Source: the human T2T-CHM13v2.0 reference genome, Homo sapiens. From it: a DNA stretch of 64,000 nt. The stretch is from assembly GCF_009914755.1 (NCBI RefSeq), contig NC_060926.1; one strand, written 5' to 3'. Shown one piece after another: positions 6,431-59,171 of this stretch; within the stretch, counting starts at the first letter, position 1; each line of letters opens with the position of its first letter. Under the pieces are notes generated by a model. The model was not told the DNA's origin and did not search any database. It saw only the letters and a list, made by a program, of their open reading frames with translations. The position numbers and the translations under genes are program-made.

Positions 6431-7301
6431 TAGAAATCAAGCCGAATAGTAGAGGACTGGAGGGAGGGTATCTCCTTCAAATATTCAGGGCATCTTAGGC
6501 TAGAAAGCCTGAGTCTACTCAGCATTCAATACAGACCAAATACTATCAGTGCCATGGTTTCACCATCTCCTTCAGGCATAATTGGTCACTTGCCCTCATG
6601 CAATTTTTGTACCTCTATACAATAGTTTAGATCACTCACTTCCTTAGGTGCTTATAATTAGCTGAGTGTGTGTCTTTCTTAAGGGCAGCGATCTTTTCTT
6701 ACTCATCTCTTTATTCCTTATTCTGTGTAGCATAGGGCCTTGCATATTCAATGATTGTTATTTATTTCAATGCTCGTTATTTATTTGGACACTCCTGCAG
6801 ATCTATAAAGAGACCACAAAGTTCCAAAAGAAAATAATCTACATTCACAAAGTAAATGAAGTATGTAGGAGATGCACTTGCTTCATTAATTTATTAATAA
6901 ATACACAATGTGCTATTGAATAAAACTTGAAACAACTAAACATCTAGAAAGTTGGAAAATATTAAAATTACGTGCCTTATTTTAAATTTTAAAGTCCGAA
7001 TATTCCTTGCTTCTAGTAAATTAGCAGAAAACAGCTCAAGAGATTGTTACACCCTCTATTCCTAAATCATGGCGATTGGGAAGAAAAAAGTGAAAGATGA
7101 GAGAGAGAGAGAGCAGAGACCCTTGGCATATAGTTGACACCCAGTAAAAAAATTTTAAAATAAAAGAAAATTGCTTTTAGATCCCAGGTTTGTAACCCCT
7201 TATCATCTCGTTCTAGGAGGTAACAAGGAGTTACTAACTTGGGATCTAAAAGCAATCCTAAGGCTTGAGGCCGAGAATGAGATGTAAAAGGACTCCTGAA
7301 A

Positions 7302-7320
7302 ACTACATTTCCCATGATGC
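7302..7320 (+). promoter_or_regulatory. ZNF143/THAP11 (SBS) promoter motif
   Basis: ACTACATTTCCCATGATGC matches the ACTACAnnTCCCAnnATGC consensus, about 150 bp upstream of the DYNC2LI1 ATG. Confidence 0.8.
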
Positions 7321-57800: not shown

Positions 57801-57977
57801 TTAAATGCATGTATGTACATGGATATACAATTGGTACAGGAGTACTGGCCATAATACCTCATCCCATCAAGATAAAATTTGTGGTTAATGCCCACCTATA
57901 AAATCAGAATACTTTAAAGCATCCCAGCAGGGCCTTGAGGATCCCATTGGGATTGTCTGGGAGAATTCAGAAGCTCA

Positions 57978-58370
<393 letters not shown>

Positions 58371-58381
58371 TTAGTGTGTGA

Positions 58382-58566
58382 TCACAAGGGTAGCGATGCA
58401 CTTTGAATGTCTCTGGGAACACTGATGCAGGGCCAAGGTCAGGTATTCCTTATGGTCACCAAGTCCTTATGGGAAATGCATTTCCCATAAGCAGTCAGTC
58501 CTTCGATGACCTTGGCCCTGCATCAGTATTCTTGGAGACATTCGAAATGCATCCCTACCCTTGTGA
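58382..58566. repeat. Long inverted repeat: 60-bp arms (58382-58441 and 58507-58566, 53/60 complementary) enclosing a perfect 26-bp palindrome (58466-58491)
   Basis: Arm TCACAAGGGTAGCGATGCACTTTGAATGTCTCTGGGAACACTGATGCAGGGCCAAGGTCA compared base by base with the reverse complement of the right arm; palindrome CTTATGGGAAATGCATTTCCCATAAG. Confidence 0.95.
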
Positions 58567-58895
58567 GCCTAGGCTACCACTGTGGGTCATGCTGCCTCCC
58601 ATCCTGACGCCCAGCTTCATATCTGGGATAGACAAGCATGACTGGACCTGGGCGTAAGTCCCAGCCAAGCCAAGTGAGTGACCTCGGGCGAGCAGGGGTG
58701 GGTCTTAGTTTGTTTTTTTGTTTTCATTTTAAATCTCAGCTCCTCCTCTGTAAAAAGCAAATAATAGCTAACTAAAGGGATACTGGGCGGAGAAAGTGAG
58801 TTTTTTTGGAAGGAAATCAGTATGATTTCGTGGAAAAACACAGCCTTTGAAGCCAACTTGGCTGTGAAAGGCTAATGCTAGCTTTTTACTATTAA

Positions 58896-59171
<276 letters not shown>

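What the first reader, a model, noticed from the sequence alone, without database searches (positions are those of the whole stretch)
58382..58566. 185-bp fold-back with a nested perfect palindrome, directly against the ABCG5 exon 7 branch point
Seen: 60-bp arms pair at 53/60 positions without gaps, and 6 of the 7 differences are transitions. The 65-nt loop contains a perfect 26-bp palindrome (58466-58491) and a duplicated CCTTATGG. On the ABCG5 pre-mRNA the stem ends 5 nt before a consensus branch heptamer CACTAAC (58376-58370) that serves a weak pyrimidine tract (TACGTCTGTTGTCTGGTCAG). Folded on the ABCG5 strand the stem has four A.C mismatches, two U.G pairs and one G.G; on the + strand four of the differences become G.U wobbles. 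Established: A.C mismatches in long dsRNA are favoured ADAR sites, and stems next to branch points can modulate 3' splice-site use. Inference: a non-Alu dsRNA element that may tune exon 7 splicing, be edited, be a Drosha/Dicer substrate, or extrude a DNA cruciform. I cannot match it to any MITE family I know.
Basis: partly seen in the sequence, partly recalled or inferred. Interest (0 to 1): 0.8.

Follow-up and report, generated by a model that had tools for sequence, protein, structure and literature searches.

The report
Single-copy fold-back in ABCG5 intron 6
A real 185-base inverted repeat lies next to the exon 7 branch site of the human sterol-transporter gene ABCG5, and it is most likely a one-off, slowly decaying local inverted duplication with no shown function.

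Summary
The arms are 60 nt and pair at 53/60, and the centre is 65 nt with a perfect 26-bp palindrome. The stem ends 5 nt from a CACTAAC heptamer 21 nt upstream of the exon 7 acceptor. It folds far better than shuffles as RNA on both strands (z -13.4 and -14.7) and as DNA (z -12.1).

No other copy was found in the 3.1-Gb human assembly. Whole-element, arm, centre, pseudo-protein and mismatch-tolerant pattern searches returned only the locus itself. A MIR control query returned 112 candidates.

No target-site duplication flanks the arms. Rfam has no match. A resemblance to MIR that I suspected was tested and failed.

Best reading: an orphan fold-back made by template switching or snap-back synthesis, aged roughly 10-100 Myr from arm divergence. 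It is transcribed passively as an intronic dsRNA stem.

An effect on splicing, editing, small-RNA production or cruciform extrusion remains untested here. Predicted pairing over the branch site and pyrimidine tract is not clearly above chance. Cross-species alignment and Dfam were out of reach.

The parts
58382..58441 (.). Left arm of the fold-back (60 nt). In ABCG5-sense RNA it is the 3' arm, ending 5 nt upstream of the branch heptamer.
   Evidence: (I1)
58507..58566 (.). Right arm of the fold-back (60 nt), complementary to the left arm at 53/60 positions.
   Evidence: (I1); the own-genome search with the left arm finds it at 88%
58442..58506 (.). 65-nt centre. It is a mosaic: a non-palindromic spacer (5 of 15 aligned columns identical in the self-reverse-complement alignment, plus a 9-nt length difference) on either side of the perfect core.
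58466..58491 (.). Perfect 26-bp palindrome (13+13, no spacer) centred on ATGCAT. Its centre (58478.5) lies 4.5 nt from the centre of the outer arms (58474).
   Evidence: I6; the only match in the genome at 3 or fewer mismatches
58437..58470 (+). Tandem direct repeat, 2 x 17 nt at 76% identity, spanning the inner end of the left arm and the left spacer. It carries the duplicated CCTTATGG.
   Evidence: D1
58370..58376 (-). CACTAAC branch-point-like heptamer of ABCG5 intron 6. The candidate branch A at 58371 is 21 nt upstream of the last intron base.
   Evidence: read; exon coordinates from the hub's annotation
58350..58369 (-). Pyrimidine tract plus AG of the exon 7 acceptor (12/20 pyrimidines).
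58433..58441 (+). CCAAGGTCA at the inner end of the left arm. It fits the recalled NR5A2/SF-1-type monomer site YCAAGGYCR. Its twin on the - strand is at 58507-58515.
   Evidence: 4 such sites on both strands of the 64-kb window, 2 of them here; 0.003 expected per arm

Best explanation
The element is an orphan, single-copy fold-back: a local inverted duplication of intron sequence, not a copy of a dispersed transposon family. The likely origin is one replication error. Either the nascent strand snapped back on itself at a short natural palindrome (the ATGCAT now at the centre), or the polymerase switched briefly to the opposite strand and copied roughly 90 nt in reverse complement. That would make a near-complete palindrome in one step. 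Since then the two halves have diverged at about 5-6% per arm. At least one of the seven differences (arm position 23) is a plain CpG-to-TpG change and positions 33-34 may be more. The hairpin tip has been reworked by slippage, seen as the 17-nt tandem repeat and the 9-nt length difference. The arm divergence puts the event at tens of millions of years ago (point estimates 24-53 Myr, range about 10-100 Myr). Today the element is carried passively in ABCG5 intron 6, and on the other strand in an intron of a long DYNC2LI1 isoform. When transcribed it should form a 60-bp imperfect dsRNA stem, which is the kind of duplex ADAR enzymes bind. I think it has no selected function. Shown here: the structure, its stability, its uniqueness in the genome, and the absence of a target-site duplication, an Rfam match or a MIR match. 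Inferred: the mechanism of origin, the age and the neutrality.
For: **Unique in the 3.1-Gb assembly.**
- DNA search with the whole element, the left arm and the centre each gave 1 first-look candidate, the locus itself.
- A full pattern scan with a 21-nt inner-arm stretch at 2 or fewer mismatches gave 7 hits: the 2 arms plus 5 others. None of the 5 extends beyond 32 nt.
- The 26-nt core at 3 or fewer mismatches matched only itself.
- The 32-nt outer arm at 3 or fewer mismatches matched only the two arms.
- Ten-nt termini separated by a 145-175 nt gap matched only itself.
- A 59-codon open frame used as a protein query gave self twice plus 2 hits at E 1.1 and 1.97 with no DNA similarity.

**Sensitivity control.** A 226-nt MIR copy from the window gave 112 candidates, 40 of them scored, and the 39 non-self matches were 70-89% identical.

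**Other points.**
- At 12% arm-to-arm divergence, copies from a family of the same age should have been caught by the mismatch scans.
- No target-site duplication of 2-10 nt flanks the arms. The only exact 5-mer (TGTGA) has its second copy inside the right arm.
- The whole element is organised as one palindrome: arms plus a core whose centre lies 4.5 nt from the arms' centre.
- Template switching is documented to create whole hairpins in one event, with more than 6,000 in primates (PMC10710096, abstract and passages).
- A second, unrelated tight fold-back in the same window (7170-7256) is also single-copy.
- Substitution pattern, core perfection and wobble asymmetry all fit neutral decay.
Against: - No outgroup genome could be consulted. 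The step from absent to present, the source arm and the age are therefore not shown.
- Arms of 60 nt (about 90 nt per half) are longer than the 30-55 nt stems that PMC10710096 used as its criterion.
- The spacer beside the core is not palindromic: 5/15 columns identical plus a 9-nt length difference. One clean snap-back is not enough, and later events must be assumed.
- The own-genome DNA search scores only the best first-look candidates. Its sensitivity for an ancient low-copy family was not established, because the control was a very high-copy family.
- Dfam/RepeatMasker could not be run.
- Neutrality is assumed, not tested. The position 5 nt from a branch heptamer and the twin CCAAGGTCA sites could mean something.
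Confidence: 0.55

Rival explanations
1. It is the relic of a palindromic non-autonomous DNA transposon (MITE). Either it is a solitary or very low-copy insertion, or it belongs to an ancient family whose other copies are too decayed for my searches.
For: Long terminal inverted repeats make up most of a short element of about 185 bp, which is the classic MITE shape. The estimated age range overlaps the last period of DNA-transposon activity in primates (recalled, not checked here). Search sensitivity for low-copy old families is unproven (one search tested only a very high-copy family).
Against: No second copy was found by any of nine searches. No target-site duplication flanks the arms. Arms that still match at 88% imply either a young insertion, whose siblings the mismatch scans should have found, or selection. 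The termini do not resemble any superfamily terminus I can recall, which is recall only.
Confidence: 0.2
2. It is a functional RNA structure in the ABCG5 pre-mRNA. A 60-bp stem starting 5 nt upstream of the branch heptamer would occupy the stretch where U2 snRNP proteins contact the intron. Its closure would draw the flanks into a helix over the branch site and pyrimidine tract. Exon 7 acceptor use would then depend on helicases or on ADAR editing of the four A.C mismatches.
For: The stem ends 5 nt from CACTAAC. In three sequence contexts the ABCG5-sense fold pairs 58356-58374 with 58574-58597 at probabilities mostly 0.74-0.93, lower (0.37-0.48) at the two branch adenines 58371-58372. With the distal arm shuffled, pyrimidine-tract accessibility rises from 0.11 to 0.38. 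Intronic structures that conceal branch sites are a described regulatory kind (PMC11162794, search listing and start of abstract only).
Against: The flank pairing is not above chance. The DNA alignment score was reached by 1488/2000 shuffles and the duplex energy by 318/1000. With the right flank shuffled, the fold was at least as stable in 183/200 trials, and tract accessibility was lower than native in only 8/200. The branch heptamer itself is outside the strong stem. There are no conservation data. The passages I saw of the ABCG5/ABCG8 variant catalogue list no ABCG5 intron 6 variant (PMC13158039).
Confidence: 0.1
3. It acts at the DNA level as an intronic regulatory palindrome. The duplication created two inverted CCAAGGTCA sites 65 bp apart, of the NR5A2/LRH-1 and SF-1/ERR monomer type and also part of a DR1-like AGGGCCAAGGTCA, in a gene known to be driven by LRH-1 and HNF4alpha.
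For: Two of the 4 YCAAGGYCR matches on both strands of the 64-kb window lie at the inner ends of the arms, where 0.003 per arm is expected. LRH-1, HNF4alpha and GATA factors are stated to activate ABCG5/ABCG8 through the intergenic promoter (PMC4133900, introduction read).
Against: The motif was noticed after the fact among many possible factors. The consensus is recalled, not taken from a tool. No binding or chromatin data could be consulted. The LXR-responsive conserved regions mapped in PMC4133900 are described as ABCG8 elements. The same 9-mer is also part of the MIR core consensus, so it is a common word in the genome.
Confidence: 0.07
4. It is a precursor of small RNAs (miRNA or endo-siRNA) cut by Drosha and/or Dicer.
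For: It is a long, stable hairpin in a transcribed intron. Hairpins made by template switching and by MITEs have given rise to human miRNAs (PMC10710096).
Against: No Rfam family matches the hairpin at E up to 10. The only overlapping row is a bacterial sRNA at 14.1 bits against a gathering score of 72. The 60-bp uninterrupted stem with a 65-nt structured centre lacks the roughly 35-bp stem and basal single-stranded junction of pri-miRNAs (criteria quoted in PMC10710096). No paper in the library holds a 15-nt arm stretch on either strand.
Confidence: 0.03

Closest known systems
Hairpins created by template-switching mutations during DNA replication (Monttinen et al. 2023, PMC10710096)
   Same: Single-locus origin with no repeat family. 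A reverse-complement copy of neighbouring sequence gives a near-perfect hairpin in one step, often in introns, followed by point-mutation decay.
   Different: The arms here (60 nt, about 90 nt per half) exceed the 30-55 nt stems that study selected. The event itself is not demonstrated, because no outgroup sequence was available. The non-palindromic spacer needs extra events.
Palindromic MITEs of the human genome, for example the MADE1 type that gave the miR-548 family (recalled)
   Same: A short element that is almost entirely two inverted arms. The transcript folds into a long hairpin.
   Different: Those have thousands of copies and a TA target duplication. This has one copy and no target duplication.
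Inverted Alu pairs, the main intronic dsRNA and ADAR substrates in human
   Same: Intronic inverted repeats predicted to form long imperfect dsRNA. Such pairs also occur in this window, in stretches the hub lists as masked repeats (I1-I7).
   Different: Those arms are 68-155 nt at 71-84% complementarity with 154-335 nt between them and belong to a huge family. This one is tighter, with a 65-nt centre and 88% complementarity, and is unique.
[quoted passage not shown]
   Same: A stable intronic helix at a branch site upstream of an acceptor.
   Different: Here the branch heptamer is 5 nt outside the strong stem. It is covered only by a predicted extension that is no better than shuffled flanks. 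Conservation and alternative splicing are not shown.

Membership tests
MITE / non-autonomous DNA transposon family | Terminal inverted repeats | tested here: met
   60-nt arms, 53/60 complementary
MITE / non-autonomous DNA transposon family | Multiple dispersed copies in the genome | tested here: not met
   Only the locus itself in the 3.1-Gb assembly. The control MIR query gave 112 candidates. Sensitivity for old low-copy families is not established.
MITE / non-autonomous DNA transposon family | Target-site duplication directly flanking the inverted termini | tested here: not met
   Scan of 21 x 21 boundary pairs for lengths 2-10. No duplication lies outside the arms. TGTGA at 58377-58381 recurs only inside the right arm at 58562-58566.
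MITE / non-autonomous DNA transposon family | Significant match to a curated consensus (Dfam/Repbase) | not testable with these tools
   No repeat library is available. The window file carries no soft-masking.
MIR (CORE-SINE) derived sequence | Significant similarity to a MIR profile | tested here: not met
   A profile built from 89 genome copies finds MIR-type copies in the window (E 1e-41 to 3e-4) but nothing on the hairpin, even with filters off. Local alignment to the profile consensus gave z 0.06-1.3 for the arms and whole element against z 8.0 for the positive control.
miRNA precursor | Match to a described miRNA family | tested here: not met
   Rfam 15 scan at E up to 10 over 57900-59100 found no miRNA row on 58382-58566.
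miRNA precursor | Stem of about 35 bp with an unstructured apical loop and single-stranded basal flanks | tested here: not met
   The stem is 60 bp and runs on into paired flanks. The 65-nt centre is itself structured.
miRNA precursor | Discrete small-RNA reads from the arms | not testable with these tools
   No expression data were available here.
Template-switch / snap-back generated hairpin | Single locus without family members | tested here: met
   Same searches as for the MITE copy-number row.
Template-switch / snap-back generated hairpin | Ancestral state without the inverted copy, with the source sequence adjacent (four-point pattern in an outgroup comparison) | not testable with these tools
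   No other vertebrate genome is held.
Branch-site-concealing intronic structure | Branch site inside a stable helix | tested here: inconclusive
   The heptamer is 5 nt outside the 60-bp stem. A predicted extension pairs 5 of its 7 bases: p 0.74-0.87 at 58370, 58373 and 58374, p 0.37-0.48 at the branch adenines 58371-58372, and 58375-58376 stay unpaired. The extension is no better than shuffled flanks in energy.
Branch-site-concealing intronic structure | Evolutionary conservation or covariation of the helix | not testable with these tools
   No orthologous sequences were available.
ADAR dsRNA substrate | Long (over about 30 bp) near-perfect duplex within a transcribed region | tested here: met
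   A 60-bp stem on both strands. It lies in ABCG5 intron 6 and inside the span of a long DYNC2LI1 isoform (hub annotation).
ADAR dsRNA substrate | Observed A-to-I sites | not testable with these tools
   No RNA-seq or editing database was available. A literature search on ABCG5/DYNC2LI1 with ADAR or A-to-I listed nothing relevant among the 12 papers shown.

The most novel reading that the evidence does not exclude
A primate-lineage, single-copy dsRNA clamp born in one replication error now sits against the exon 7 branch site of ABCG5. It would make correct splicing of the sterol exporter depend on dsRNA helicase or ADAR activity, with editing of the four A.C mismatches (A at 58404, 58414, 58532 and 58533 in ABCG5 sense) tightening the stem. 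The same event would have doubled a CCAAGGTCA nuclear-receptor site into an inverted pair inside a gene driven by LRH-1 and HNF4alpha. That would be a de novo structural and regulatory element in a cholesterol-disease gene.
Probability: 0.06. Interest if true: 0.6.

Novelty: new member of a known kind. Interest (0 to 1): 0.3.

Why it matters
If it is just an orphan fold-back, it is one clean, large example of how replication errors create long hairpins de novo in human introns. It is useful as a case study but not surprising. It would matter more if the stem affects exon 7 splicing. Skipping the 130-nt exon 7 would shift the reading frame of ABCG5, the sitosterolemia gene, so variants in either arm could then be overlooked deep-intronic modifiers. 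The element also shows that tight non-Alu dsRNA stems exist in liver- and gut-expressed introns and should be checked in editing and dsRNA-sensing datasets.

Tried and rejected
1. **MIR-derived arms.** By eye the arms resembled a MIR core and tail. I collected 30 loci carrying a recalled 24-nt MIR core motif (418 exact genome hits, 0 for the reversed control). I built and iterated an nhmmer profile to 89 sequences. It finds MIR-type copies across the window (E 1e-41 to 3e-4), including 58645-58802 just beside the hairpin, but gives no hit on the hairpin with filters off. Alignment to the consensus is no better than shuffles. Rejected.
2. **Extended palindrome reaching the branch site and pyrimidine tract.** RNA folds pair 58356-58374 with 58574-58597. 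DNA alignment, duplex energy and whole-construct energy are all within the shuffle range. Not accepted as part of the repeat.
3. **Target-site duplication.** None found.
4. **Covariance-model search of the human genome.** Model R1 was built but the genome tool does not take RNA models. I dropped it.
6. **Positions of human-mouse conserved regions in ABCG5/ABCG8 (PMC4133900, Table S1).** The supplement is not held, so it gives no indirect conservation evidence.
7. **Literature.**
   - Searches on ABCG5 with 'intron 6' or 'hairpin' and on ABCG5/DYNC2LI1 with ADAR or A-to-I listed nothing about this element.
   - No paper holds a 15-nt arm stretch on either strand.
8. **Soft-masking.** The window file is all upper case, so it holds no repeat mask information.

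Full report
**1. The observation**

- The arms are 58382-58441 and 58507-58566. They are 60 nt long and 88% complementary without gaps, with 65 nt between them.
- The centre holds a perfect 13+13 palindrome at 58466-58491. It also holds a 17-nt tandem direct repeat (58437 and 58454, 76%) that carries the duplicated CCTTATGG.
- The seven arm differences are six transitions and one transversion.
- On the + strand they give 4 G.U, 2 C.A and 1 C.C. On the ABCG5 strand they give 4 A.C, 2 G.U and 1 G.G.
- On the ABCG5 strand, CACTAAC lies at 58376-58370, 5 nt from the stem. A 12/20-pyrimidine tract plus AG follows, up to exon 7 (hub annotation).

**2. More than chance**

- As RNA, a 205-nt stretch folds at -121.4 kcal/mol on + and -120.7 on -. 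Shuffles give -59.0 +/- 4.6 and -56.0 +/- 4.4, and 0 of 200 shuffles did as well.
- As DNA it folds at -65.5, against -24.3 +/- 3.4 for shuffles.
- Among the 14 inverted pairs with arms of 25 nt or more within 400 nt in the window, this one has the highest complementarity. The longer pairs lie in stretches the hub lists as masked repeats.
- In 30 other 3-kb human loci I found only two inverted pairs of 35 nt or more. Neither had arms of 40 nt or more with a short spacer.

Some details that looked special are not.
- Given 53/60 arm identity, 13 intact core pairs have probability 0.20.
- Six transitions out of seven differences has P = 0.27.
- The 4-versus-2 wobble asymmetry between the strands has P = 0.34.

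**3. Is it a repeat family?**

In the 3.1-Gb assembly that holds the window, every search returned only the locus itself.
- DNA searches with the whole element, the left arm and the centre each found a single first-look candidate, the locus itself.
- A 21-nt inner-arm stretch at 2 or fewer mismatches gave the two arms plus five other hits. None of the five extends beyond 32 nt, which is about the number expected by chance.
- The 26-nt core at 3 or fewer mismatches matched only itself.
- A 32-nt outer-arm stretch at 3 or fewer mismatches matched only the two arms.
- The 10-nt termini with a 145-175 nt gap matched only itself.
- A 59-codon open frame used as a protein query found self twice, plus two hits at E 1.1 and 1.97 with no DNA similarity.

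As a sensitivity control, a 226-nt MIR copy from the same window gave 112 candidates. Forty were scored, and the 39 non-self matches were 70-89% identical. That control is a very high-copy family, so an old family of a few hundred copies could still escape. Arms that still match at 88% imply siblings of similar age at about 88% identity, and the mismatch scans would have caught those.

No target-site duplication flanks the arms. Rfam has nothing on the hairpin.

**4. A lead that failed**

By eye the arms resembled a MIR SINE: a core with CCAAGGTCA and a similar tail.
- I built a profile from genome copies.
- It detects MIR-type copies across the window, including one at 58645-58802 just beside the hairpin.
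- It gives no hit on the hairpin with all filters off.
- Alignment of the arms to the profile consensus is no better than shuffles: z 0.06-1.3, against z 8.0 for the positive control.

The arms are not demonstrably MIR-derived.

**5. Anatomy and origin**

Aligning the element to its own reverse complement gives 87% mean column identity. There is a 9-nt length difference, and a spacer next to the perfect core is not palindromic, with 5 of 15 columns identical. The core is centred on ATGCAT, 4.5 nt from the centre of the outer arms.

The simplest history is as follows.
- A snap-back or strand switch during replication copied about 90 nt in reverse complement.
- Point decay followed. The difference at arm position 23 is a plain CpG-to-TpG change. 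Positions 33-34 would be further CpG decay if the ancestor had CG there, and position 13 also touches a CpG.
- Slippage at the hairpin tip produced the 17-nt tandem repeat.

Template switching is documented to make whole hairpins in one event, with more than 6,000 in primates. That study considered stems of 30-55 nt, so this one is large for the class (PMC10710096, abstract and passages).

Kimura distance between the arms is 0.105-0.131, or about 5-6% per arm. With assumed rates of 1.0-2.2e-9 per site per year, the point estimates are 24-53 Myr. The Poisson range is about 10-100 Myr. This is inference, because no outgroup was available.

A second, unrelated tight fold-back at 7170-7256 is also single-copy.

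**6. Function**

*Splicing.*
- The stem begins 5 nt upstream of the branch heptamer. By established knowledge (recalled), U2 snRNP proteins contact the intron in that stretch.
- In ABCG5-sense folds of three context sizes, the flanks 58356-58374 and 58574-58597 pair at probabilities mostly 0.74-0.93, dropping to 0.37-0.48 at the branch adenines 58371-58372. This covers the tract and part of the heptamer.
- Shuffling the distal arm raises tract accessibility from 0.11 to 0.38.
- The flank complementarity is nevertheless ordinary. The alignment score was reached by 1488 of 2000 shuffles and the duplex energy by 318 of 1000.
- With the right flank shuffled, the construct is at least as stable in 183 of 200 trials. 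Tract accessibility is lower than native in only 8 of 200.
- So there is a generic, weak prediction of occlusion and no evidence of design.
- Structures that conceal branch sites are a known regulatory kind (PMC11162794, listing and start of abstract).
- The passages I saw of the variant catalogue list no ABCG5 intron 6 variant (PMC13158039).

*Small RNAs.* The shape is not pri-miRNA-like and no family matches.

*Editing.* A 60-bp stem is a plausible ADAR substrate, but no data could be consulted (one search found nothing relevant).

*DNA level.*
- The inner arm ends carry two inverted CCAAGGTCA sites. That is 2 of the 4 matches in the window to a recalled NR5A2-type consensus, where 0.003 per arm is expected.
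- LRH-1 and HNF4alpha are stated activators of ABCG5/ABCG8 (PMC4133900).
- This was noticed after the fact and is untested.

**7. Verdict**

The feature is real and striking, and it is single-copy. It is best explained as an orphan fold-back from a replication error, decaying neutrally in ABCG5 intron 6 (confidence 0.55). The rivals are:
- a solitary or ancient MITE (0.2);
- a splicing or ADAR-relevant RNA structure (0.1);
- a palindromic nuclear-receptor element (0.07);
- a small-RNA precursor (0.03).

The decisive tests are Dfam, a multi-species alignment, editing and small-RNA data, and a minigene.

Noticed in passing
window 7170-7256: A second tight fold-back: 40-nt arms, 85% complementary, 7-nt loop. 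It ends at the start of the RefSeq enhancer 7255-7304 and lies about 110 nt upstream of the DYNC2LI1 first exon. It is also single-copy in the genome (self only, 1 candidate) and unrelated in sequence to the ABCG5 one.
   Followed up: partly
window 58645-58802 (+): A decayed MIR-type SINE copy lies 79 nt to the right of the hairpin (profile positions 36-185, E 3.3e-4 over the whole window). It is not part of the fold-back.
   Followed up: yes
window 58960-59100 (-): An Alu-like element gives sub-threshold Rfam hits: Metazoa_SRP at 57.2 bits against a gathering score of 70, plus mir-3135, mir-1268 and mir-1285-type rows. These are ordinary Alu cross-matches.
   Followed up: no
window 58433-58441 (+) and 58507-58515 (-): Twin inverted CCAAGGTCA sites, also readable as the DR1-like AGGGCCAAGGTCA, sit at the inner ends of the arms. 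They make up 2 of the 4 YCAAGGYCR matches in the 64-kb window. The same 9-mer is in the MIR core consensus.
   Followed up: partly
window 58377-58386: The left junction forms its own perfect 10-bp palindrome (TGTGA|TCACA). This is because the 5 nt before the left arm equal the last 5 nt of the right arm. It could be microhomology at the junction of the duplication, or chance in a TG-rich flank.
   Followed up: partly
window 58394-58570 (+): One reading frame stays open for 59 codons across most of the palindrome. It has no relative in the six-frame genome search. I treat it as an accident of the sequence.
   Followed up: yes
L035:80-167: In an unrelated chromosome 1 locus, a 37-nt, 81% inverted pair with a 14-nt spacer looks by eye like two SINE ends facing each other. 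I used it only as background for how rare tight inverted repeats are.
   Followed up: no
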